Position numbers and translations under genes: made by a program. From a bacterium (GTDB taxonomy: Bacteria > Hinthialibacterota > Hinthialibacteria > Hinthialibacterales > Hinthialibacteraceae): 64,000 bases of DNA. Position 1 is the first letter of the stretch. Every line of letters starts with the position of its first letter. The stretch is taken from assembly GCA_963663405.2 (NCBI GenBank), contig CAXXSM010000110.1:32001-96000 (forward strand), in the 5' to 3' direction. Shown here one piece after another: positions 7,714 to 16,411 of the stretch. The notes under the pieces are model-generated. The model saw only the letters and a list, made by a program, of their open reading frames with translations. It had not been told where the DNA came from and ran no database searches.

Positions 7714-8099
7714 TATTTGGATTCGGTTTTGAATAGAAAATGCGATCGGATTGATCGAGAAGAGATGCAGAGAGTATTCACTAGGCGAATCTCGCCATTT
7801 TACGTTTCTCGACGGGAATGTCCCGTATGGATTTCATGTCTTGACCACAGACCGTTCGTTCGCTGTTCAACGGTTTGTTGGGACAAACCGGATACGGACA
7901 AAGGTTTCATGCGGTCTTTTTTTGGTCTTCCAACCTGAAAGTCATCTCATTTTCCTGGCGGAAAAGATTCTACTTTCGGATGGTGTTTTGTTGTTCTTGC
8001 GCAGAAGTGAATTCCCTCCGGTTTATAAATCTTCCGGTTTTGAGCGTTTGGACAACTCTCTTTTGAGAGGATTGTTGTACCTCTTGAGTGACTGCAAAC

Positions 8100-8114
8100 C
8101 GTAACCTTTAAATA
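8100..8114 (+). promoter_or_regulatory. Archaeal-type BRE-TATA motif
   Basis: CGTAACC-TTTAAATA ending 23 nt before ATG 8138. Confidence 0.5.
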
Positions 8115-8137
8115 GTAGTGACAATTCTCCTTGCTCC

Positions 8138-8311
8138 ATGAAACGAATCACACCCCACACACCGGATGAAGAAATCGCCGATTGGATTGAAGAACAGCTC
8201 AAAGAAGTCAACCTAAAAGTCGAACACATTATTTACCGGCTGCGGTATGAAGATCCACGCATTTGGTTGGCTGAGAACGAGCGAAAAGATAAGAACCTAA
8301 AGAAATATTAA
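8138..8311 (+). CDS. 57-aa hypothetical protein (not in ORF track)
   Basis: MKRITPHTPDEEIADWIEEQLKEVNLKVEHIIYRLRYEDPRIWLAENERKDKNLKKY*; no SD. Confidence 0.55.
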   Translation: MKRITPHTPDEEIADWIEEQLKEVNLKVEHIIYRLRYEDPRIWLAENERKDKNLKKY

Positions 8312-8679
8312 TCTCTGGATGGGATTGTTTTTTCACCCCTGCCTTTTCGATCAAAATAGACGGTTTCTGAACGAATTCATTTTTTCTTCCTTGTTAAAAT
8401 TTCGTGACTTATCATATGAGGACCATCCAAAAATGACCTCCTACCAAAAACCGTGCGAAAGCGTGGAATTTGAGTTCAATGGGGCAGGGGGACAAGCGAA
8501 CTCCAACTAAAAGATTGAAAAATATGCAGTTTTCTTGCGGAATGGGATGAAATTTTAGGAGGGTATATACCTTTACTATCGTGTAGGCTGTCCATTGAAC
8601 TTATGCATATGACTTTCTCGACGAGAAACATGAATTGAACTCATTTTTTGGTTATTTTACAGCAATCAAAAGAGAATTC

Positions 8680-9093
8680 TCAAAGGTAAAATATCAAATC
8701 CCGTTCTTTCTGTTCCTGGACGGAATCCTTCTTCTGTCGGAAATTCAGAACCAGATTGGCCACTTTCACTAACGCCCGGGGAAACTTGTTGGAAAACACC
8801 CAGCCTTCCCGATAGCCGTATGTCTTGTTAAACCGGGAGACGTGATCGATCAGCCCCATCCGCCGCATTTTGGCGCGAACCGTTTCCAAACTCCGGCGGC
8901 TCAATCCCAGTTGATCTACAATCGGATCCAGGACCGGTAAGAACTGATCCTTGGCCCATTTCAGTTCCACGAAGATCGAGAGAAAAATCTTTTGATGATT
9001 AGAGTTATCCGGAAAGAGAATTCTCGCCAACTCATCCGCGGATTCCAACCGGGATATCGTGTTATGGTTAGTCTCGATTTTTGTGGAAGCCAT
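8680..9093 (-). CDS. Winged-helix-like hypothetical protein
   Basis: IVDQLGLSRRSLETVRAKMRRMGLI pattern; abuts upstream gene. Confidence 0.65.
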   Translation of the reverse strand: MASTKIETNHNTISRLESADELARILFPDNSNHQKIFLSIFVELKWAKDQFLPVLDPIVDQLGLSRRSLETVRAKMRRMGLIDHVSRFNKTYGYREGWVFSNKFPRALVKVANLVLNFRQKKDSVQEQKERDLIFYL

Positions 9094-9094
9094 T

Positions 9095-9487
9095 TTATTT
9101 AGGGCGGTAGGATCGATTAGCTTGATTGACTCGTTTGCGTAATGTCACTCGTTCTTTCGCGATTTCAAGCGCCTGAGATCGTAGGTATGAGCCAAAATTG
9201 GATTCCAACCAATAGATCGTTGTATACGCGTTCACGTAAATATCGTTGAATAACCGTTGGAATCTCCAGCGGACTCCCTGGCGGGTCATGCCAAACACGC
9301 GCTCTATTTTCATCCCGTAATTCTTGTGCAATACCAATGTTTTTGGATCGGTCTTCTTCAGTTCAATGGATAGATCGTTCTCCTCAAACAGACCTTTCAA
9401 CCGTTGGATGAACTCCAAATCCTTTTGTGTCAGTTTCACTTTTCTTTTAAGGATTGATGTTCTATTTAAGGTTTTCGATCTCCTCAT
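9095..9487 (-). CDS. Hypothetical protein, possible HTH
   Basis: IERVFGMTRQGVRWRFQRL; start uncertain (9487 or 9550). Confidence 0.6.
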   Translation of the reverse strand: MRRSKTLNRTSILKRKVKLTQKDLEFIQRLKGLFEENDLSIELKKTDPKTLVLHKNYGMKIERVFGMTRQGVRWRFQRLFNDIYVNAYTTIYWLESNFGSYLRSQALEIAKERVTLRKRVNQANRSYRPK

Positions 9488-10235
9488 CGAAATCCCGTTT
9501 AAACACCCAGATATCGTTCCCCTCTTGCCGCAAATGGACTTGCCGGTCATGTTCCATGAATATCAGTGTAATAAACCGCCAGATTCGATCCTTCGGTGTG
9601 GAAGGATGCAACGCCGGTATCTGTGAAAAGAGCACACTGCGCTGGTTTACAAGAGCAGAGATGGCGCGCTGGTAATCGGTCATGCAGAACGTTTCCGAAC
9701 GGTCATATGCAAACTCATCATTCCCCGTTTCGGCGCCGATCAACCGATCCAAATCTTGTTCCAATCCTGGGATGGTGTCCAATTGGGGATAGTCCTCCAA
9801 TTCCAGTTCTTTCGAATGAGAATCCCTTAGCTGTTTTCTCATCCTGTCGCGGTACAGTTGTTTCCGTTCGCGTGATTCTTTCATTCGCTCTCTAAAATAA
9901 TCCGCGTCGAACAGCCGTTCATCAAAGAGAAATCTGGACGGAACGGTAGCGCCGCATTGCGTACAGGCGTAATGATACACTTTCTTCGTTAGCCTGGCTT
10001 TGCAGCAGGGGCTTGATTGAAATTCGATTGTCGGATCGAGTTGAACACCGCAGGAACATCGCCATGTCGTAGGAGAGAGAACCTTCATCTTTTGGCCGCA
10101 TTGGGGGCACCGGTAGCGCATCCGCAGCACCGCCACGTAAAAATCCCGCGCAATAGTCTGGATTGTTGTCACTCGATCGTGAACACGGTCGATCGCCGCA
10201 ATCAGAGGATTTGGATTCCTTCGTGGAATGAGCAT
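9462..10235 (-). CDS. Multi-Zn-ribbon protein with ScpA/kleisin-like C-terminal winged helix
   Basis: CPQC..CSC, CC..CTQC; RIWRFITLIFMEHDRQVHLRQEGNDIWV resembles the ScpA C-terminus. Confidence 0.65.
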   Translation of the reverse strand: MLIPRRNPNPLIAAIDRVHDRVTTIQTIARDFYVAVLRMRYRCPQCGQKMKVLSPTTWRCSCGVQLDPTIEFQSSPCCKARLTKKVYHYACTQCGATVPSRFLFDERLFDADYFRERMKESRERKQLYRDRMRKQLRDSHSKELELEDYPQLDTIPGLEQDLDRLIGAETGNDEFAYDRSETFCMTDYQRAISALVNQRSVLFSQIPALHPSTPKDRIWRFITLIFMEHDRQVHLRQEGNDIWVFKRDFDEEIENLK

Positions 10236-10257
10236 GCCATTGGGGATATGCGCAAAG

Positions 10258-10297
10258 CATATAGATGTTTCGGTTGGAAAAACGAAAGGTTTATATA
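10258..10297. promoter_or_regulatory. Divergent archaeal-type BRE-TATA pair
   Basis: + strand GAAAGG-TTTATATA (10284-10297); - strand CGAAACA-TCTATATG ending 22 nt before ATG 10235. Confidence 0.5.
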
Positions 10298-10332
10298 GAT
10301 GTCGAGACCTATTGTTTTACAGGTGATCAAGT

Positions 10333-10491
10333 ATGGAAGAACTATTTGAATGTCCTTATTGTACATCGTCTAACACAATTTGGCGGGGTTATCGTAAATT
10401 GAAAGAAGGGCGAGTCAGAATTCGCCAATGCAAATCCTGTAAGCGGCGATTCACTCCCAGAAAACAACCGGAATATGGTGATGAACCATGA
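10333..10491 (+). CDS. 52-aa Zn-ribbon protein (not in ORF track)
   Basis: MEELFECPYCTSSNTIWRGYRKLKEGRVRIRQCKSCKRRFTPRKQPEYGDEP*; AGGTGA SD; ATGA overlap with 10488. Confidence 0.75.
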   Translation: MEELFECPYCTSSNTIWRGYRKLKEGRVRIRQCKSCKRRFTPRKQPEYGDEP

Positions 10492-10796
10492 ATGGAATAG
10501 CCGCTAAACCGGAGATGGAATTCAAAGCCGGCGCGGTTCGCGCCGCTATCTGGATGAATCCACATCAATCCGCCGATGGGAAATTGTTTACCAGCGCGAA
10601 AGTCGTGGTGGAACGGATCTACAAGGATGAGAGCGGCCATTTTAAAAGCACACACCGTCTCGATACCAATGATATCCCCAAGGCGATCCTGGTTCTCAAA
10701 AAGGCGTTCGAAGTGCTTACGCTCAAAAAACCGGAGCCAGGATATCAGCCGACACAGTCTTCTCTCCATCCATCGATCCCTAACCGTCTACCATGA
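10488..10796 (+). CDS. Putative PC4-like nucleic-acid-binding protein
   Basis: FKAGAVRAAIWMN..VERIYKDESGHFKST..NDIPKAILVLKKAFE; GGTGA SD. Confidence 0.65.
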   Translation: MNGIAAKPEMEFKAGAVRAAIWMNPHQSADGKLFTSAKVVVERIYKDESGHFKSTHRLDTNDIPKAILVLKKAFEVLTLKKPEPGYQPTQSSLHPSIPNRLP

Positions 10797-11032
10797 ATCC
10801 CCGCTTTGAAGATCGGACTTTCTTGGCGAGTGAACCACTGGATTGGATTATGATTCAAAGAATCAGAGATCTGCGAAATCTTGCTGATGCGAGCCATGAT
10901 CGATTGAGAGAATTACGACGGGAGCCCCAAAAGAATTCTTTGGAGATCCGGTTTGAAGAAACTGTTCTTCATTCGACCTTACGAACGATTGAGAAAATGG
11001 AACATTCATTGTTTCTGGAAAGGAATGACTAA
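10793..11032 (+). CDS. Hypothetical protein
   Basis: ATGA overlap with the preceding gene. Confidence 0.55.
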   Translation: MNPRFEDRTFLASEPLDWIMIQRIRDLRNLADASHDRLRELRREPQKNSLEIRFEETVLHSTLRTIEKMEHSLFLERND

Positions 11033-12301
11033 AGATTTTGCCCGCAGGTCTTGAAGACCTTTTGGACGACTTTTTCTGGAAGAGAGGAAGACAGTTCCCG
11101 GGTTTTTTCCGTACCGCCCCTTTGAGATTACCCTGGCGTTGATTAAACCGTAGATGTCCAAAAAACTGACGATATCAGAGAATCGCCGCTGTGTGAGTGT
11201 CCGCACATTCCGCTGGTCACAGATGGATCGATAAATATCATAAGCGGGCCCGGTCCAGAGTTTTTCTCGTGAGTTATGCAAGCCAGTATAGCAAGCCAAG
11301 AGAGCGCATTTCTGTTGAGGCGCGAGAGCTTGGATTAACTGCTCGGTCTTGTCGATCTCCAACAAGGAATCCGCCTCATCCACTTCACGCACACCCAGAT
11401 AACCGGTCGAATCTTCGGCGATTTTGACTCCTTTGACTAACAACTCGATGGCTTTGCGCGCGTCTCCATTCTCCCGTGACGCGTATGCGGCGATTTTGCG
11501 GATCGACGCGGGATCGACTTTCCGGATGTCGAGGGCTTTCTCCACCCGGAGATTTAAGATTTCAATCAGATCCATGGCGTCGTAGGGCTCAAAAATAATA
11601 TCCGTCTTTTTGAGCACGGAGAGAATTCGAGGATCCAAGGTTTTGTCCCATTCGATTCGATTGGTCAGCAAGAGATAAAATAAGCGGACGGGAACCCGTT
11701 TGGGCAATGTTTTGGCTAAAAACGTGTAAAAGAGATCGCTGTTGGAGGTGACATTGTCGACCTCGTCCATCACAATGCAGACCAAGTTATGGCGGGCCGT
11801 CAGCGCCCGGATGACGGTCTCTTGCATCTGGTCTAACGCGATGCCTTTGCGGTACCGTTTGGTTGTCCCATCCAAGGATAAGGCCAGCTCGTTCAACGCG
11901 CCAAAACAGGTTTTCGGAGTGGTGAGATCGACGTAATAATACTGAAACTGAATCTGTTTGGCGCCGCACATGGAAGCCAGAGCGTTGAGGAAATGTAAGC
12001 AGGTGACCGATTTGCCCGCGCCGGAAGGGCCGTAGATCAGGAGATTGGCCGGCGAATCACCGGCCAGAACGGGTGATAAGTATTTGGCTAATCGATGCAG
12101 TTGTTGTTGGCGAATGTTGCGTTGAAAGATCTCTTTTAGAACCGTTACCCGTTCGGATTCCGTCAGTTTTTCATCATCGAGATAGGAAGGATTCAGCGTG
12201 ATTTTCTTGTCTTCGATATGAAGAAACGCTTCTTGAATCAGGGATTCTGTGCTCGTTGTCGAGGTGGATGGTTCGGTTCCATAGGAAATCTTCTGACTCA
12301 T
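11006..12301 (-). CDS. cdc6: Orc1/Cdc6-family replication initiator (AAA+ plus winged helix); probable +1 frameshift near the C-terminus
   Basis: NLLIYGPSGAGKS, IVMDEVD, LDPRILS, FEPYDAMDLIEILNLRV, GDARKAIELL, LTQRRFSDIVSFLDIYGLI..KGRYGK. Confidence 0.9.
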   Translation of the reverse strand: MSQKISYGTEPSTSTTSTESLIQEAFLHIEDKKITLNPSYLDDEKLTESERVTVLKEIFQRNIRQQQLHRLAKYLSPVLAGDSPANLLIYGPSGAGKSVTCLHFLNALASMCGAKQIQFQYYYVDLTTPKTCFGALNELALSLDGTTKRYRKGIALDQMQETVIRALTARHNLVCIVMDEVDNVTSNSDLFYTFLAKTLPKRVPVRLFYLLLTNRIEWDKTLDPRILSVLKKTDIIFEPYDAMDLIEILNLRVEKALDIRKVDPASIRKIAAYASRENGDARKAIELLVKGVKIAEDSTGYLGVREVDEADSLLEIDKTEQLIQALAPQQKCALLACYTGLHNSREKLWTGPAYDIYRSICDQRNVRTLTQRRFSDIVSFLDIYGLINARVISKGRYGKNPGTVFLSSRKSRPKGLQDLRAKSLVIPFQKQ

Positions 12302-12325
12302 GCCGTATAGGAAGGCCTCTTTCAA

Positions 12326-12340
12326 TATTTAAATTTTTTC
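12326..12340 (-). promoter_or_regulatory. Archaeal-type BRE-TATA upstream of cdc6
   Basis: GAAAAAA-TTTAAATA ending 24 nt before ATG 12301; no SD. Confidence 0.55.
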
Positions 12341-12468
12341 TTGTCCTGAAGGAGTGATAACAGAGAACTGGGAGGGAAGATTTCCTGTGGAACGCAATTA
12401 TAAAATAAGGTTCATCCGGAAATTGGGCACATCGATTGAATTTTTAATAAAAAGTGTAATCGAAAGCC

Positions 12469-12559
12469 CTATGGATCGTGACGTGTCTGTGGACAAATCT
12501 ATCGATATTGCCCACAGCCACTTGGATAACGATAAAGCCGTTATCCACACGCTCCACAG
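12469..12559. repeat. Cloverleaf of hairpins containing DnaA-box sequences
   Basis: Stems 12469-80/12548-59, 12487-96/12508-17, 12524-31/12539-46; TTATCCACA at 12541; TGTGGACAA at 12488. Confidence 0.7.
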
Positions 12560-13065
12560 TTATACGGATAATACCAATTCTATTTTTTTCTTTGTTAATA
12601 ACTGATTGAATATTCTATACTTAAGAATCTTGAAAAACTTGCTAAGATTTAAAGAAATCCTTGTATTGATCATTTTAAAAAACAGATTGCAAAACACCCA
12701 ATAATCAATATTCCGATAGTCTATTCAAAGATTAGATAATCATAGAATAAGATACACAAATATTTGACAGATTACTTTTGACATTTAACAGATCACGGAG
12801 TATCGATGCTTTTTTCCTAGGAAATTTGAGGTATCACAATGATAAAACTTACAAAAAATGGTGAAATTTCCTAAGAAAAAACGCAATGCGCCCAATTTCC
12901 GGATGAGCCTAAAATAAGTTGTTTATTACTTCTTTTATTACATACTATATAGAAAACAAAAACAAACATTCAAATTCAAAAATTTTCATACATATCACAA
13001 TTGAAAATGAGTTTCCACAGGAAATCTCCTCTCATGGTTCGACCAATTTCCAATGAATTTCCAAT

Positions 13066-13080
13066 CGTAACATTTATATT
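13066..13080 (+). promoter_or_regulatory. Archaeal-type BRE-TATA motif
   Basis: CGTAACA-TTTATATT ending 23 nt before in-frame ATG 13104. Confidence 0.5.
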
Positions 13081-13103
13081 TGAGTAGGAACAAATATGAA
13101 TCC

Positions 13104-14327
13104 ATGATTGGAAATCGAATGGCAAATGGGATAGATCATCACGCGTGGACATTCACAAGATCGTCAGTTCCCAATGGATTCTCTGCTTTGACTCAGTGGG
13201 ATACTATCCTCGATCCAACCCATGTTTATCTTCGTCATTCTAACATCATCGATTTTTTCATTTTTGCTCTTATTTTCATCGGAATCGCTCATTTCAGTCT
13301 CCGAAAGAGATTTCCTGGTAGAGCAGGAAGAGCGGTCAGTTTGGGGATTGGATTGGTTCTGGCCTTTTCTATGATTTCTGCGGAAAAGAGATATCAATTT
13401 ACTCTCACTTCATTTGGTACGGTGGCAATTGTCATTTTAACTCTTCTGTTTGGGATTATGGTCTACCAGATTTTTTCGTATTTAAAAATAAGTTCGATTC
13501 TATCTTTTCTTTTAACCTTGGTTGTGATGATGTTGGTAGTTACAACCATCGATCCTTATTTGAATGATCTGGCAAGCGCTATCATTCCTTTTTTGTATCC
13601 ATTGCTCGTAATCGCATTTCTTGTCTCTTTGGTGAAAGCGCTTGCAAAGATTAGTGCCAGGAGTCCGAGTGAAGCTCTGAAAGTCAAATTACATAAACTC
13701 TCCTACAACGATCCCGATCGAATCACCAACAAGAAATTATCCGATGAAGCGAATTCTTTGAAGAAAGTCGGTATTCCTGGAATCAAAAAAATGCAGTCTA
13801 GCATGAAACAGATGAAGACATCGTTTGATGAACTGGATTCTTCCATTCAACATTACGGAGGGAATCCTCGGGCCCGATCCTTGCTCGCTCAGAAAATACA
13901 AATGACGTTTCAATCGAACCGTTATTTGAAAAAATCACTGGATTCTCTTAAAACACTCAATGAACGTCTCCTGGCTCTGGATTCCAGTCTGTTTTCTGCA
14001 AAACAGCGCCAACTGATGGACAAAATGAGTCTAAAAGAACGGAGGAAATTGAAGAAAGAGATACTGGATGAACAGCAAAAGGTTGGATTGGAATCGGAGA
14101 TCGAGGAGTTAGAAACGAGGATTGAGAATCGGGAAATCGCGATTAATCAATCGTTGCGTGATTCCATGAGAAATCTACTGGCTGGAAGAATAGAGGAAGC
14201 GCTCAAGAAGATTCGAATAGCGAGAGTCTGGAAGAAAGAAGGCTATTTGATCGCCCAGCGGATTCAGGATTTGGAAAAGAAAATTTTGAGGATAAGCCTT
14301 TTGGATATCGATCGAACGAAAATTTAA
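13104..14327 (+). CDS. Membrane protein (about 5 TM segments) with long C-terminal coiled coil
   Basis: Hydrophobic segments from IIDFFIFALIFIGIA to LLVIAFLVSLV, then K/E/L-rich heptads. Confidence 0.75.
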   Translation: MIGNRMANGIDHHAWTFTRSSVPNGFSALTQWDTILDPTHVYLRHSNIIDFFIFALIFIGIAHFSLRKRFPGRAGRAVSLGIGLVLAFSMISAEKRYQFTLTSFGTVAIVILTLLFGIMVYQIFSYLKISSILSFLLTLVVMMLVVTTIDPYLNDLASAIIPFLYPLLVIAFLVSLVKALAKISARSPSEALKVKLHKLSYNDPDRITNKKLSDEANSLKKVGIPGIKKMQSSMKQMKTSFDELDSSIQHYGGNPRARSLLAQKIQMTFQSNRYLKKSLDSLKTLNERLLALDSSLFSAKQRQLMDKMSLKERRKLKKEILDEQQKVGLESEIEELETRIENREIAINQSLRDSMRNLLAGRIEEALKKIRIARVWKKEGYLIAQRIQDLEKKILRISLLDIDRTKI

Positions 14328-14339
14328 CTGGTTAGTAAA

Positions 14340-14819
14340 TCAGCGGTTTTGCACGGTCAAAATCGCATTCATGATCTCACGCATGCGTTCAATTGTATCG
14401 ACCTGATGAGAATCCCTGTGATGATACATCACATCAATCCCAGCAAAGAGATTCCGATGAAGACTTTCCACTTGATACAGATTCTGCTTATCCGCTTCCA
14501 GAACTAGGACAAAACGATATTCATTCTCCCAACCTTGTATCTTCATATGTGGCCGGGCGCGGAGGAAATACTCCTCCGCCCGGTGAACTTGCCGGATGGC
14601 TTCCCCAATATCGTAGAGTCGAGGTTTCATTTCACAGATCAACCATGTCGATCTTTTCTGATCCGCAGAATCTTTCCGAAGCACAACATCAATCACGCCC
14701 CGATCCCCATAATGGTTGTACATGATCTCACAGCCAACCAGGGAGTAATGTTTTAACTTCATCGCCTCAATGAAATTCTGTGTAAATGCGGCGTGTTGAT
14801 GGTCTTTTGTGGAAGGCAT
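14340..14819 (-). CDS. PD-(D/E)XK restriction-endonuclease-like protein
   Basis: CEIMY..GVIDVV..LICEMK..GEAIRQV; start uncertain (14819 or 14990). Confidence 0.6.
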   Translation of the reverse strand: MPSTKDHQHAAFTQNFIEAMKLKHYSLVGCEIMYNHYGDRGVIDVVLRKDSADQKRSTWLICEMKPRLYDIGEAIRQVHRAEEYFLRARPHMKIQGWENEYRFVLVLEADKQNLYQVESLHRNLFAGIDVMYHHRDSHQVDTIERMREIMNAILTVQNR

Positions 14820-14850
14820 TTTCTCATGAGACCAAAGTAAGAATGTATGA

Positions 14851-14864
14851 TTTATAAAACTTTG
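14851..14864 (-). promoter_or_regulatory. Archaeal-type BRE-TATA-like motif
   Basis: CAAAGT-TTTATAAA ending 23 nt before ATG 14827 (out of frame) and 31 nt before in-frame ATG 14819. Confidence 0.35.
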
Positions 14865-15304
14865 GATTTTACAAGGTGTGTATTCATAACTCGATTGATT
14901 GAGTAATCGATGCCGGTCAGGATGGTAAACAGGATTGTGTCTATTCGGTGGAATTCGTGGTATGATGATTTTCTCAAGTCTTGCATTCATTGACCTTTTT
15001 AGTTTGAATGACTGATTATTTTCAATAAATCGTCATAAACCTTTGTTTTTGAGTGATTTGAGCGTTCATTTCTTTGAAATATAAGGTACACGGATGCAAA
15101 ATCGGCATACATATATAGATATTATATGAGATCAAATTTAATAATTAATGAGTTAAACTTTTTATAATAGGGTATATATAATACTAAATTATTCAAAAAA
15201 TACTCTAACCTTGTGTATTCTCAATTCAAGCAATTTTCCCCTTAAATCAAAAATTTGTTGTGATATCTTATACGTATATTTCGGAGTGATTTTGGAGGAA
15301 AATC

Positions 15305-16411
15305 ATGGCTGATCAAACCCGAAAAAAGAAGATTAAGAGAGTCTATGGAACCGGTTGTCTTTATCAGAGGAATGGGTTTTGGTATGTCAGTTTTCGTCAT
15401 GAAGGTAAACAGTTGGTTCGCGCGGTTGTAGAGCCGAGTACGAAACGGCGGGCGGTGAATAAAATACAAGCCGAAAAATGGGCTCAGGAAATGATGTATC
15501 GAATTTCCCATGGCGAAAAAGGCGCATTGGAAGATCGGATTAAGAAAAAGAATTTGATTTTACTCCAAGAACTTGATGAAGCTTATTGTCAGGCGTTTGA
15601 AGAACAATGGGATGAAAAACGAAGAGTCCATCACCGGAATGTCATAGGGCGGTTTACGAAACGCTTTACTCATATTCGTGATATTACACATGAATCGCTT
15701 GGTCAATACGTGGAAGAACGCAAAAGTCCATCATCCCGTGGTACGATTCGTTCAAACGCAACAATCAACAGAGAACTATCAGAATTACGAAGGATTCTTA
15801 ATTGGGCTTTGCAAGTTGACCTCATTGAGAGAAATCCATTTCTTGGATTTAAACTACTCAAAGAAGAAAACCACCGGGAGAGAATTTTAACGGATGAAGA
15901 ATTACAACGCTTACTTGCGACTCTCAAGAAGAAAGAATTCTCGGATTTTCGTCCAATTGTGTTGATTGCGTTGTATATGGGGATGCGGCGGGGCGAGATC
16001 ATTAATTTGAAATGGTCGGATGTTGATGAAACGAAACAAGAATTCGATCTACTCAAAACCAAAAATGGAAAACGCCGGAGGCTTCCAATCCCCGATATCG
16101 TATGGAAGGAATTGAGAAAGATCAAAAGGAATTCTGAATACATCTTTGCGTCACCAAGGAATCCAGAGCAACCACGAAAAAAGATATGGAATCGTTGGAC
16201 AGCGCTATTGAAAGCTAGTAAGATAGACAACTTTCGCTTCCATGATGCTCGCCACTGGTGTGCATCAAATTTGTTACGAAATGGCGCCGATCTCGCAGTC
16301 GTGAAGGAGATTCTTGGGCATACGACTATCGTGACGACCAGCCGATATTTGAATGTTCTTCAAAAGGAGAAGAAGACTGCGTTGGATGACTTAGAAAGAA
16401 AATTCACTTGA
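15305..16411 (+). CDS. Tyrosine recombinase/integrase
   Basis: GMRRGEI (R), TKNG (K), FHDARH (HxxR), ILGH, TTSRY (Y); arm-binding-like N-terminus; GGAGG SD. Confidence 0.95.
   Translation: MADQTRKKKIKRVYGTGCLYQRNGFWYVSFRHEGKQLVRAVVEPSTKRRAVNKIQAEKWAQEMMYRISHGEKGALEDRIKKKNLILLQELDEAYCQAFEEQWDEKRRVHHRNVIGRFTKRFTHIRDITHESLGQYVEERKSPSSRGTIRSNATINRELSELRRILNWALQVDLIERNPFLGFKLLKEENHRERILTDEELQRLLATLKKKEFSDFRPIVLIALYMGMRRGEIINLKWSDVDETKQEFDLLKTKNGKRRRLPIPDIVWKELRKIKRNSEYIFASPRNPEQPRKKIWNRWTALLKASKIDNFRFHDARHWCASNLLRNGADLAVVKEILGHTTIVTTSRYLNVLQKEKKTALDDLERKFT

What the first reader, a model, noticed from the sequence alone, without database searches (positions are those of the whole stretch)
8100..14864. 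Archaeal BRE-TATA motifs at canonical spacing before each transcription unit of the core
Seen: CGTAACC-TTTAAATA-23nt-ATG8138; CGAAACA-TCTATATG-22nt-ATG10235; GAAAGG-TTTATATA-23nt-AGGTGA SD-ATG10333; GAAAAAA-TTTAAATA-24nt-ATG12301; CGTAACA-TTTATATT-23nt-ATG13104; CAAAGT-TTTATAAA-23nt-ATG14827 (out of frame). Several of these genes lack an SD. Established: archaeal TATA boxes lie near -30 to -23 with an upstream BRE, leaderless mRNAs are common, and bacterial RNAP does not use TBP/TFB. Inference: either a recent archaeal acquisition or an element that brings its own archaeal-like transcription factors.
Basis: partly seen in the sequence, partly recalled or inferred. Interest (0 to 1): 0.9.

Follow-up and report, generated by a model that had tools for sequence, protein, structure and literature searches.

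The report
Archaeal-style promoters in a bacterial element
A mobile DNA element that lives in bacteria carries, in front of its replication genes, start signals built like those of archaea, and relatives in several bacterial phyla keep them although these bacteria lack the archaeal proteins that read such signals.

Summary
All six motifs are at the stated coordinates. They precede all six transcription units of the core. The sixth gene really starts at ATG 14819, 31 nt after its box.

The pattern is not chance and not a host habit. Of 3652 host leading genes, 2.0% have a 7-of-8 TTTAWATA match 21-25 nt before the first ATG. Of 67 non-redundant upstream regions of the core genes in this element and its relatives, 25% do.

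The shared box is C-R-A-A-A-N-N-TTTAWATA. It lies 22-25 nt before an ATG without a Shine-Dalgarno site, or 22-23 nt before a GGTGAT-type ribosome site.

The element is bacterial. It has four copies in this 8.4-Mb genome, which has RpoD and no TBP, TFIIB or archaeal RNAP subunit N. Relatives sit in closed Desulfobacterota chromosomes and in Hydrogenedentota and Spirochaetota. Archaeal Orc1 is only 25-30% identical, so "recent archaeal acquisition" is rejected. No archaeal-like transcription factor was found.

Canonical sigma-70 elements do not explain the sites. What reads the box is unknown and no RNA data were available.

The scan had noted this stretch before, on this same DNA only.

The parts
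8100..8138 (+). Promoter of p57: A-rich upstream box CGTAACC (8100-8106), TATA-like 8-mer (8107-8114), 23-nt spacer, ATG 8138, no Shine-Dalgarno site
   Evidence: Box and 8-mer are identical in 4 of 4 copies while 3 of 23 spacer columns vary.
8138..8311 (+). p57, a 57-aa protein of unknown function
   Evidence: One weak PHROG hit of unknown function. Orthologues were found only in the copies in this genome.
8680..9093 (-). wHTH137, a winged-helix protein and third gene of the Zn257 operon
   Evidence: 54-64% identical in 13 other loci. The model has pLDDT 74.6. Fold matches are generic winged helix: MarR family and archaeal TFE-alpha, E about 1e-3, TM 0.34-0.44 on the query.
9095..9487 (-). 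HTH151, a conserved DNA-binding-like protein. The real start is probably the GTG near 9439, because relatives start MKLT.
   Evidence: 705 homologues, no Pfam family. Alignment. Model pLDDT 80.3 with no PDB fold match; best E 0.22.
9462..10235 (-). Zn257, a multi-Zn-ribbon protein and first gene of its operon
   Evidence: The Atlas gave a weak lead to ScpA/kleisin, score 0.77. Orthologues are 40-45% identical in 17 loci.
10236..10272 (-). Promoter of the Zn257 operon: CGAAACA (10272-10266), TCTATATG (10265-10258), 22-nt spacer, ATG 10235, no Shine-Dalgarno site
   Evidence: Identical box in 4 of 4 copies. The same layout occurs in L037 and, to the second ATG, in L048; most other orthologues lack it.
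10283..10335 (+). Promoter of the Zn52-p102-p79 operon: CGAAAGG (10283-10289), TTTATATA (10290-10297), 23 nt, AGGTGAT ribosome site (10321-10327), ATG 10333
   Evidence: The distance from the box to AGGTGA is 22-23 nt in 6 of 6 loci with that site. Two further loci have the ATG directly 23 nt after the box.
10333..11032 (+). Zn52 (10333-10491), p102 (10488-10796) and p79 (10793-11032), overlapping genes of one operon
   Evidence: Zn52 gives weak Zn-ribbon hits. p102 is preceded by GGTGAT.
11009..12301 (-). Orc1/Cdc6-family AAA+ protein of 430 aa (one search counts 431 with the stop), with lid and winged-helix domains
   Evidence: Pfam Cdc6_C 7.4e-18 and Cdc6_lid 1.4e-10. TIGR02928 scores 239.5 bits against a cut-off of 181.3. 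Four copies in the genome.
12302..12340 (-). Promoter of cdc6: GAAAAAA (12340-12334), TTTAAATA (12333-12326), 24-nt spacer, ATG 12301
   Evidence: The TATA is invariant in 4 copies while 8 of 24 spacer columns vary. A box 22-25 nt before the ATG is the best match (6 of 8 or better) in 12 of 35 non-redundant orthologues.
12409..12909 (.). 501-bp MITE-like insertion between the cdc6 and mem407 promoters. It is not part of the promoter system.
   Evidence: 98.7-100% identical copies on 8 other contigs, 100% on four of them. It is absent from the C141 and C4 copies of the element. Terminal inverted repeats of 44 nt. A joint without it stands in runs X2 and X4.
13066..13106 (+). Promoter of mem407: CGTAACA (13066-13072), TTTATATT (13073-13080), 23-nt spacer, ATG 13104
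   Evidence: In 5 of 6 non-redundant orthologues, which are only 19-28% identical as proteins, a 7-of-8 or better box lies 21-25 nt before the first ATG.
13104..14327 (+). mem407, a membrane plus coiled-coil protein
   Evidence: no Pfam family. Orthologues lie beside cdc6 in L004, L005, L009, L011, L013, L025 and L034.
14340..14819 (-). p159, unknown function. The start is ATG 14819, not ATG 14827 or ATG 14990.
   Evidence: the in-frame ATG is kept in 5 of 5 copies.
14820..14865 (-). Promoter of p159: CCAAAGT (14865-14859), TTTATAAA (14858-14851), 31 nt to ATG 14819
   Evidence: TATA invariant in 5 copies.
15305..16411 (+). Tyrosine integrase at the right end of the element. It uses a GGAGG Shine-Dalgarno site and has no box at the canonical distance.
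   Evidence: Pfam Phage_integrase 5.3e-32. Sequence and table.

Best explanation
The six motifs are the core promoters of the six transcription units of a conserved Orc1/Cdc6 replication and maintenance module. The module is carried by a multi-copy integrative, probably mobilisable, element of bacteria.

Each promoter is a 15-bp box, C-R-A-A-A-N-N-TTTAWATA. Its 3' end lies 22-25 nt before the ATG of a first gene without a Shine-Dalgarno site, or 22-23 nt before a GGTGAT-type ribosome site.

Shown:
- The sites are real.
- The grammar is specific to the module.
- It is conserved in relatives from several bacterial phyla.
- It is absent from host genes and from the element's accessory arms.
- It does not match canonical sigma-70 -10/-35 rules.
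- TBP and TFB were not found.

Inferred:
- The grammar came with the Orc1/Cdc6 module from an archaeal mobile-element ancestor.
- It has been kept by selection because something in the bacterial cell reads the box and sets the mRNA 5' end about 23 nt downstream. That would give leaderless or very short-leader mRNAs.
- The most likely reader is a conserved DNA-binding protein of the module itself (wHTH137, HTH151 or Zn52) that recruits the host RNA polymerase.
For: Sites and spacing.

Host contrast:
- 37 of 3953 host leading ORFs carry the loose motif 22-24 nt before an in-frame ATG.
- With one rule for both sets (first in-frame ATG, best TTTAWATA match in -60..-1, ties shared), a 7-of-8 or better box at 21-25 nt carries weight 16.5 of 67 non-redundant family upstreams (25%). 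Without this window it is 13.5 of 61. In the host it is 74.7 of 3652 (2.0%).
- The crude start calls are good enough to see position-specific signals: AGGAG is 22-fold enriched just before them.

Upstream A-tract, which was not used to pick the sites:
- A at -5, -4 and -3 in 32, 39 and 39 of 45 sites.
- AAA there in 23 of 45 sites, against 182 of 5542 host intergenic TATA-like sites. Fisher P = 6e-22.

One ruler, two end points:
- 22 of 45 sites lie 21-25 nt from the ATG.
- In 6 of 6 Zn52 loci with a ribosome site, the box lies 22-23 nt from AGGTGA.
- The base before the ATG is C in 16 and a pyrimidine in 19 of 22 sites.

Within the genome, 0 of 48 TATA columns vary against 31 of 158 spacer columns.

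First genes lack a Shine-Dalgarno site. Internal genes and Zn52 use GGTGAT or GAGGTGAT. The host uses AGGAG, AAGGA and GGAGG; GGTGA is enriched 1.7-fold and GTGAT 1.0-fold.

Against sigma-70:
- None of 11 consensus hits falls at a site.
- 38 of 45 boxes hold no TAnnnT.
- 22 of 22 leaderless-type sites have no TAnnnT placed for a start at the ATG.

Bacterial hosts:
- RpoD scores 391.9 bits, and no TBP, TFIIB or RNAP subunit N was found.
- Relatives lie in closed bacterial chromosomes.

Form matches the archaeal rule:
- M. jannaschii has an 8-nt TATA box, TWTATATA. Its BRE covers the nine positions upstream, and position -34 is the most conserved (PMC2699501, passages). That is the third base before the box.
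- T. kodakarensis has its TATA box a median 23 bp from the transcription start, the ribosome-site consensus GGDGRD, and counts leaders of 8 nt or less as leaderless (PMC4247193, passages).
Against: - No transcript 5' end was seen. No RNA holder was listed, so the start point is inferred from geometry only.
- No bacterial machinery is known that starts about 23 nt after a TATA-like box.
- No reader was identified. HTH151 has no fold match. wHTH137 is a generic winged helix. Zn257 leans weakly towards kleisin.
- The pattern is not universal in the family. Only 2 of 13 Zn257 orthologues have it. Many Desulfobacterota cdc6 genes have the box 33-49 nt from the first ATG.
- One mem407 orthologue (L004) has AAGGAG between the box and the ATG.
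- Orthologous promoters share ancestry, so counts across loci overstate independence.
- Gene starts were assigned by a crude rule, and the TTTAWATA consensus used for scoring was recalled.
- Archaeal ancestry of the module rests on family membership. No rooted tree was made.
Confidence: 0.45

Rival explanations
1. Ordinary bacterial reading. The host sigma-70 holoenzyme uses the AT-rich 8-mer as a -10-like element without a -35, and starts 6-8 nt downstream. The mRNAs then have leaders of 15-17 nt, or about 29 nt for Zn52. The likeness to archaeal promoters is ancestry or coincidence.
For: - The 8-mer resembles TATAAT, and this reading needs no unknown machinery.
- The Zn52 layout (box, 22-23 nt, GAGGTGAT, 5-6 nt, ATG) would give a normal bacterial leader.
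- L004 mem407 has AAGGAG inside the would-be leader.
- A bacterial promoter made only of an 8-bp TATAAATA box exists (phage T4 late promoters; recalled, from no call).
- Host genes show a slight bump of TATA-like matches 13-17 nt before starts.
Against: - 38 of 45 boxes contain no TAnnnT in any register. The conserved last letter is A in 40 of 45 sites, where sigma-70 wants T.
- No -35 partner: none of the 11 consensus hits of the region lies at any of the six sites.
- The conserved A-tract would fall at about -17 to -19, where sigma-70 has no known preference (recalled).
- The first genes would have leaders without a Shine-Dalgarno site. These spacers are 59% pyrimidine. The same module does use ribosome sites for internal genes.
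- There is no reason why the ATG in one class and the ribosome site in the other should sit at the same distance from a -10 element.
Confidence: 0.3
2. The box is an operator or architectural site for a regulator of the module (wHTH137, HTH151 or the Orc1/Cdc6 protein), which co-ordinates the six units. The true promoters lie elsewhere.
For: - The same 15-bp box stands before all six units.
- The module encodes two highly conserved helix-turn-helix proteins.
- An ORB-like box lies between the TATA and the ATG of cdc6 in many loci.
- An archaeal Orc1 paralogue acts as a transcription regulator (PMC6061795; search listing and start of abstract only).
Against: - No other promoter-like element is conserved near these genes.
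- An operator need not keep a ruler of 22-25 nt to the ATG, or to the ribosome site, through complete turnover of the spacer sequence.
Confidence: 0.1
3. Cross-domain shuttle. The element also lives in archaea, for example syntrophic partners of these bacteria. It keeps archaeal promoters because they are read by TBP/TFB there.
For: - The grammar fits archaeal rules in four respects.
- Several carriers are anaerobic sediment bacteria (record titles).
Against: - The HTH151 marker was not found in any of 401 genomes sampled from the phylum of Halosimplex. The same profile hit two positive-control bacterial genomes.
- All organism-named close Cdc6 relatives are bacterial.
- The copies here sit between arms with bacterial Shine-Dalgarno sites.
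- Only one archaeal phylum was sampled.
Confidence: 0.05
4. Recent archaeal acquisition, a chimeric or mis-binned contig, or chance matches in AT-rich spacers.
For: GC falls to 0.38-0.40 over 12001-16000. The Orc1/Cdc6 family is otherwise archaeal.
Against: - Four copies about 90% identical lie on four contigs of the same genome.
- Relatives lie in closed bacterial chromosomes, and archaeal loci are only 25-30% identical.
- Part of the low GC is a 501-bp host repeat.
- The positional and A-tract statistics exclude chance.
Confidence: 0.03

Closest known systems
Archaeal BRE/TATA core promoters with leaderless or short-leader mRNAs (Methanocaldococcus jannaschii, Thermococcus kodakarensis)
   Same: - An 8-nt TTTAWATA-type box.
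- An A-rich element just upstream, with its strongest position three bases before the box (against PMC2699501).
- About 23 nt from the box to the expected start (PMC4247193).
- First genes without a ribosome site, internal genes with a GGTGAT-type site that fits GGDGRD.
- Pyrimidine then purine at the presumed start.
   Different: - The hosts are bacteria. TBP and TFIIB were not found in 6 carrier genomes. RNAP subunit N was not found in this genome, the only one searched for it.
- No 5' end is mapped.
- The spacer is 52% GC. Some archaea have an AT-rich proximal element there (recalled).
Bacterial sigma-70 promoters, including bacterial leaderless genes with a -10 box about 7 nt before the ATG
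   Same: An AT-rich hexamer-like core, a bacterial host with RpoD, and ATG start codons.
   Different: - No -35 element.
- No TAnnnT in 38 of 45 boxes.
- No -10 placed for a start at the ATG in 22 of 22 sites.
- The conserved element sits at -38 to -24 relative to the ATG.
Phage T4 late promoters (8-bp TATAAATA read by gp55 with gp33) and T4 middle promoters (MotA box near -30). Recalled, from no call.
   Same: A promoter defined by an 8-bp TATA-like box without a -35, or by a box near -30 read by a factor that the mobile element encodes and that redirects the host polymerase.
   Different: - No gp55-, gp33-, MotA- or AsiA-like protein was recognised among the core proteins.
- T4 late transcripts have ordinary leaders.
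- T4 middle promoters keep a sigma-70 -10, which is missing here.
Archaeal integrated elements and plasmids that carry Orc1/Cdc6 and a tyrosine integrase
   Same: An Orc1/Cdc6 initiator beside an intergenic region with ORB-like repeats, a tyrosine integrase, and archaeal-form promoters.
   Different: - Integrated in bacterial chromosomes.
- Joined to arms with a Replic_Relax protein, ArdC, a MoxR-VWA pair and an ECF sigma factor, which use bacterial ribosome sites.
- No MCM helicase was seen among the proteins scanned.

Membership tests
Archaeal BRE/TATA promoter (TBP/TFB-dependent) | 8-bp TATA box of TTTAWATA type | tested here: met
   Of the six window sites, 5 score 7-8 of 8 and one scores 6 of 8. 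37 of 67 non-redundant family upstreams have a 7-of-8 or better match, against 546 of 3652 host leading genes.
Archaeal BRE/TATA promoter (TBP/TFB-dependent) | Purine- and A-rich BRE directly upstream, strongest three bases before the box (position -34) | tested here: met
   A in 39 of 45 sites at -3 and at -4, and in 32 of 45 at -5. AAA there in 23 of 45 sites against 3.3% of host TATA-like sites. Rule taken from PMC2699501 passages.
Archaeal BRE/TATA promoter (TBP/TFB-dependent) | Transcription starts about 23 nt after the box | not testable with these tools
   No RNA run holds the stretch. The only evidence is the 22-25-nt ruler to the ATG or the ribosome site.
Archaeal BRE/TATA promoter (TBP/TFB-dependent) | TBP and TFB present in the cell | tested here: not met
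   PF00352 and PF00382 gave 0 matches in G000, which is 82% complete. They gave 0 of 5 other carrier genomes, two of them closed chromosomes. The controls rang in 4 archaea.
Archaeal BRE/TATA promoter (TBP/TFB-dependent) | Archaeal-type RNA polymerase | tested here: not met
   RNAP subunit N (PF01194) was not found in G000. RpoD is present at 391.9 bits against a cut-off of 354.
Bacterial sigma-70 promoter | -35 TTGACA-like and -10 TATAAT-like hexamers 16-18 nt apart | tested here: not met
   11 matches in 7900-15300, with 13.7 +/- 4.4 in the shuffles. None lies at the six sites.
Bacterial sigma-70 promoter | -10 hexamer with A at position 2 and T at position 6 (TAnnnT) | tested here: not met
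   Absent from 38 of 45 boxes in registers -2 to +8. Absent from 22 of 22 leaderless-type sites at -16 to -9 from the ATG.
Phage T4 late-type promoter (recalled) | TATAAATA box plus an element-encoded gp55-like sigma | tested here: inconclusive
   The 8-mer is similar. No core protein matched a sigma family in Pfam, PHROGs or NCBIfam. A very diverged factor could be missed.
Orc1/Cdc6 initiator family (gene next to promoter 4) | AAA+ domain with Cdc6 lid and C-terminal winged helix; family model above its cut-off | tested here: met
   Cdc6_C 7.4e-18 and Cdc6_lid 1.4e-10. TIGR02928 scores 239.5 bits against 181.3. Origin binding and helicase loading were not tested.

The most novel reading that the evidence does not exclude
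A widespread family of bacterial mobile elements runs its replication module on an archaeal promoter logic. A BRE/TATA-like box fixes initiation about 23 nt downstream and gives leaderless mRNAs. It is read in bacteria by an element-encoded factor that is neither TBP/TFB nor a recognisable sigma. That would be a new mode of promoter recognition by bacterial RNA polymerase, and a living trace of an archaeal mobile element that crossed domains with its control signals intact.
Probability: 0.3. Interest if true: 0.95.

Novelty: new variant of a known kind. Interest (0 to 1): 0.8.

Why it matters
Promoter architecture is one of the sharpest divides between Bacteria and Archaea. Genes that cross that divide are expected to lose their old signals.

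Here a whole module keeps a box of archaeal form and an exact ruler through deep divergence inside bacteria. Cdc6 falls to 43% identity and the membrane protein to about 20-28%. These hosts have no TBP or TFB.

There are two possibilities. Either bacterial polymerase is being directed by an unknown factor to a -30 box, or sigma-70 tolerates and selects a grammar that breaks its own rules.

Either answer bears on three questions: how transferred genes get expressed across domains, how leaderless mRNAs arise in bacteria, and how this large uncharacterised family of Orc1/Cdc6 elements works. Cultivated carriers (Desulfosarcina variabilis, strain NaphS2) make the question directly testable by 5'-end mapping.

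Tried and rejected
- RNA evidence: no RNA holder was listed for 7900-15000.
- Laying the contigs of the four DNA runs gave only short pieces. No piece spans the stretch, so it says nothing on transcripts or on the junctions. It did show a joint without the 501-bp repeat in X2 and X4.
- Own transcription factors:
  - HTH151 was modelled (pLDDT 80.3) but has no PDB fold match (best E 0.22) and no PDB sequence match.
  - The Atlas gave no named lead for HTH151.
  - wHTH137 (pLDDT 74.6) matches many winged-helix proteins, TFE-alpha among them, at TM 0.34-0.44. This is too generic to use.
  - Zn257, p102 and wHTH137 have no significant PDB sequence match.
  - No anti-phage defence family fits; the only hit was a weak mad8 match to the AAA+ part.
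- ECF sigma idea. CGAAAC and CGTAAC resemble ECF -35 motifs (recalled), and the left arm holds an ECF sigma with a FecR partner. I dropped it for three reasons. By eye, no CGT-type -10 follows at 16-17 nt. The 8-mer would lie in the ECF spacer. And the sigma gene is absent from 16 of 16 other large loci.
- Sigma-54 and bacterial leaderless -10 readings were rejected on sequence.
- Literature: searches listed no paper on archaeal-type promoters in bacterial elements or on this bacterial Orc1/Cdc6 element family.
  - I read passages of 10.1101/2024.09.03.610885 and PMC3914693, and neither treats it.
  - This covers the held library only, and supplements were closed.
- Rows dropped before counts:
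  - loci whose tblastn match began after query residue 60;
  - loci with no in-frame ATG;
  - loci with fewer than 60-80 nt upstream;
  - near-identical upstreams (5 of 72);
  -, sites scoring under 6 of 8.
- broke ties towards 23 nt. One search repeats the count without that bias.
- No tree of Cdc6 was built, so the direction of transfer is not shown.

Full report
**What is there.**
- Each is a TATA-like 8-mer: 8107-8114 (+), 10265-10258 (-), 10290-10297 (+), 12333-12326 (-), 13073-13080 (+) and 14858-14851 (-).
- Each is preceded by an A-rich heptamer.
- Each is followed by 22-24 nt and then an ATG. At 10290 it is followed by 23 nt, AGGTGA, 6 nt and ATG 10333.
- The ORF map shows that these six sites precede exactly the six transcription units of the core: p57; Zn257-HTH151-wHTH137; Zn52-p102-p79; cdc6; mem407; p159.
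- One correction: the ATG 23 nt after the sixth box is out of frame. The in-frame ATG at 14819 lies 31 nt after the box and is kept in all five copies, whereas the out-of-frame one is lost in one copy.

**The host is a bacterium and the element is bacterial.**
- The window is C110:32001-96000 of an 8.44-Mb, 170-contig genome that is 82% complete.
- The genome has RpoD above the family cut-off, plus six further weaker matches to the same RpoD model.
- TBP, TFIIB and archaeal RNAP subunit N were not found, while the controls rang in four archaea.
- The gene at 11009-12301 is a full Orc1/Cdc6-family protein (Cdc6_C, Cdc6_lid). It scores 239.5 bits on TIGR02928 against a cut-off of 181.3.
- The genome holds four copies, 95-100% identical as protein.
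- They lie within an element of at least 32 kb that is about 90% identical between contigs C110, C141, C4 and C86. Partial copies lie elsewhere.
- The left arm carries a Replic_Relax protein, ArdC, a MoxR-VWA pair and an ECF sigma with a FecR partner. A tyrosine integrase closes the right end.

**Relatives.**
- The Cdc6 protein has 425 database hits. The best 120 are 55-95% identical. Every hit that carries an organism name is bacterial: Hydrogenedentes, Thermodesulfobacteriota and strain NaphS2.
- In species-representative genomes, 12 of 16 confirmed loci are bacterial at 54-67% identity. They include the closed chromosomes of Desulfosarcina variabilis, a Desulfatiglandales MAG and a Desulfarculaceae MAG, and also Spirochaetota and Hydrogenedentota. 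The 4 archaeal loci are only 25-30% identical.
- A metagenome scan added 29 loci at 47-68% identity.
- cdc6, Zn52, Zn257, HTH151, wHTH137 and mem407 travel together in these loci.
- In the host's own phylum, 5 of the 35 genomes held, this one included, carry the HTH151 marker. That is a patchy, mobile distribution.
- This rules out a recent archaeal acquisition and a mis-binned contig.

**Host genes do not do this.**
It shows no peak 22-24 nt before ATGs that open ORFs of 50 codons or more: 52, 59 and 41, against 31-60 at offsets 5-60. Several of those hits are the element's own copies.
- I made crude gene calls: 5914 ORFs, 80% coding.
- With them, 37 of 3953 host leading ORFs carry the loose motif 22-24 nt before an in-frame ATG.
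- The start calls are good enough to see position-specific signals. AGGAG is 22-fold, and AAGGA and GGAGG 11-fold, enriched just before them.

**The family keeps the grammar.**
- I applied one rule to both sets: first in-frame ATG, best match to TTTAWATA in -60..-1, ties shared.
  - A 7-of-8 or better box occurs in 37 of 67 non-redundant upstream regions (72 before dereplication) of the six leading genes.
  - It lies 21-25 nt from the ATG with weight 16.5 (25%). Without this window the weight is 13.5 of 61.
  - In the host the figures are 546 and 74.7 of 3652 (2.0%).
- By gene:
  - mem407: 5 of 6;
  - cdc6: 8 of 35, or 12 of 35 when a best match of 6 of 8 is allowed;
  - Zn52: 2 of 12 directly, and 7 of 12 at 32-36 nt through a ribosome site;
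  - Zn257: only 2 of 13 counting 6-of-8 matches.
- Many Desulfobacterota cdc6 genes have the box 33-49 nt from the first ATG. The pattern is therefore strong but not universal.

**The upstream element is real and sits at the archaeal position.**
- I aligned 45 non-redundant sites on the 8-mer. The flanks played no part in choosing them.
- This gives C(-7) R(-6) A(-5) A(-4) A(-3) N N TTTAWATA. A occurs in 32, 39 and 39 of 45 sites at -5, -4 and -3.
- AAA stands there in 23 of 45 sites, against 182 of 5542 host intergenic TATA-like sites (P = 6e-22). Without this window's sites it is 19 of 39.
- In M. jannaschii the TATA box is 8 nt (TWTATATA). The BRE covers the nine positions upstream, and -34 is the most conserved position (PMC2699501, passages). 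That is the third base before the box, as here.

**One ruler, two end points.**
- 22 of 45 sites lie 21-25 nt from the ATG. This count used a tie-break towards 23, and one search is the unbiased version.
- In 6 of 6 Zn52 loci that have a ribosome site, AGGTGA begins 22-23 nt after the box. In two further loci the ATG itself lies 23 nt after it.
- The base before the ATG is C in 16 and a pyrimidine in 19 of 22 sites.
- Within this genome, 0 of 48 TATA columns vary between copies, against 31 of 158 spacer columns, 5 of 42 upstream-box columns and 16 of 180 coding columns. So the spacer keeps its length but not its sequence.
- First genes have no ribosome site. Zn52 and internal genes use GAGGTGAT or GGTGAT. 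The host does not favour that word: GGTGA is enriched 1.7-fold and GTGAT 1.0-fold.
- T. kodakarensis has its TATA box a median 23 bp from the start and the ribosome-site consensus GGDGRD. It counts leaders of 8 nt or less as leaderless (PMC4247193, passages).
- A start about 23 nt after the box explains both classes at once. A start 7 nt after it explains neither distance.

**Sigma-70 does not explain the sites.**
- None of the 11 consensus -35/-10 matches in the region lies at a site. The shuffles gave 13.7 +/- 4.4.
- 38 of 45 boxes hold no TAnnnT. The conserved last letter is A in 40 of 45 sites.
- None of 22 leaderless-type sites has a TAnnnT placed for a start at the ATG.
- The element's flanks behave differently. 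Left-arm genes and the integrase have AAGGA or GGAGG ribosome sites.

**Who reads the box?**
- No answer was found. TBP and TFIIB were not found in this genome or in five other carrier genomes.
- The ECF sigma of the left arm is cargo. It was not found in any of the 16 other large loci.
- HTH151 has 705 homologues and no family. It models well but has no fold match.
- wHTH137 is a generic winged helix. MarR proteins and TFE-alpha are among its matches at TM 0.34-0.44.
- Zn257 leans weakly towards kleisin.
- No RNA run holds the stretch.
- A shuttle between domains finds no support. The HTH151 profile hit two control bacterial genomes but none of 401 genomes of one archaeal phylum.

**Verdict.**
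The second, own archaeal-like factors, is unproven.
- My reading, at 45%, is a conserved box of archaeal form that fixes the 5' end about 23 nt downstream and is read by an element-encoded protein with host polymerase.
- The main rival, at 30%, is a rule-breaking sigma-70 -10 reading.
- 5'-end mapping in a cultivated carrier would decide between them.

Noticed in passing
window 12409-12909: A 501-bp MITE-like repeat with 44-nt terminal inverted repeats is inserted between the cdc6 and mem407 promoters of this copy only. Copies 98.7-100% identical lie on 8 other contigs, 100% on four of them. It contains the 'DnaA boxes' (12469-12559), and its ends supply two of the 13-mers that earlier notes read as parts of a hybrid origin. 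A joint without it stands in runs X2 and X4.
   Followed up: partly
L058:12682-14048 (C110:24682-26048; window -7318 to -5952): The element's left arm carries an ECF sigma factor (Sigma70_r2 and r4_2) with a FecR-like partner. The pair lies in the stretch shared with the C4 and C86 copies, but it was not found in any of the 16 other large family loci, so it is cargo.
   Followed up: partly
window 12277-12325, and the same place in L009, L025-L029, L049-L051: [quoted passage not shown] It is a candidate site for autoregulation by the Orc1/Cdc6 protein.
   Followed up: no
L012, L014-L018, L031-L045: In the Desulfobacterota-type relatives the cdc6 reading frame starts four codons later, at a conserved AAAATGTCC. 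The box lies 33-49 nt upstream, so these genes are not leaderless by the 23-nt ruler.
   Followed up: partly
C110:30607-30660 (window about -1393 to -1340): The Replic_Relax gene of the left arm also has TCTATAAA 22 nt before its ATG, but no A-tract. A TTTAAATA on the other strand faces the divergent neighbouring gene.
   Followed up: no
G010 (L004) and G021 (L005): Two genomes of the host's own family or order carry a more distant form: cdc6 is 43-44% identical and mem407 lies beside it. The HTH151 marker was not found in them, yet both genes keep the box 21-23 nt before the ATG.
   Followed up: partly
C1:24719 (+) and C161:23800 (-): Two identical small ORFs of 72 codons are preceded by CGATAGA-TTTATATA and 23 nt. 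They lie beside partial copies of the element. Host genes also show a slight excess of TATA-like matches at 21-25 nt (14-20 per position against about 11), which may come from other mobile DNA.
   Followed up: no
window 9095-9550: The 151-codon ORF of HTH151 is probably too long. Relatives start at MKLT, which is a GTG near 9439 here, and two copies in this genome have a stop codon in the upstream extension.
   Followed up: partly
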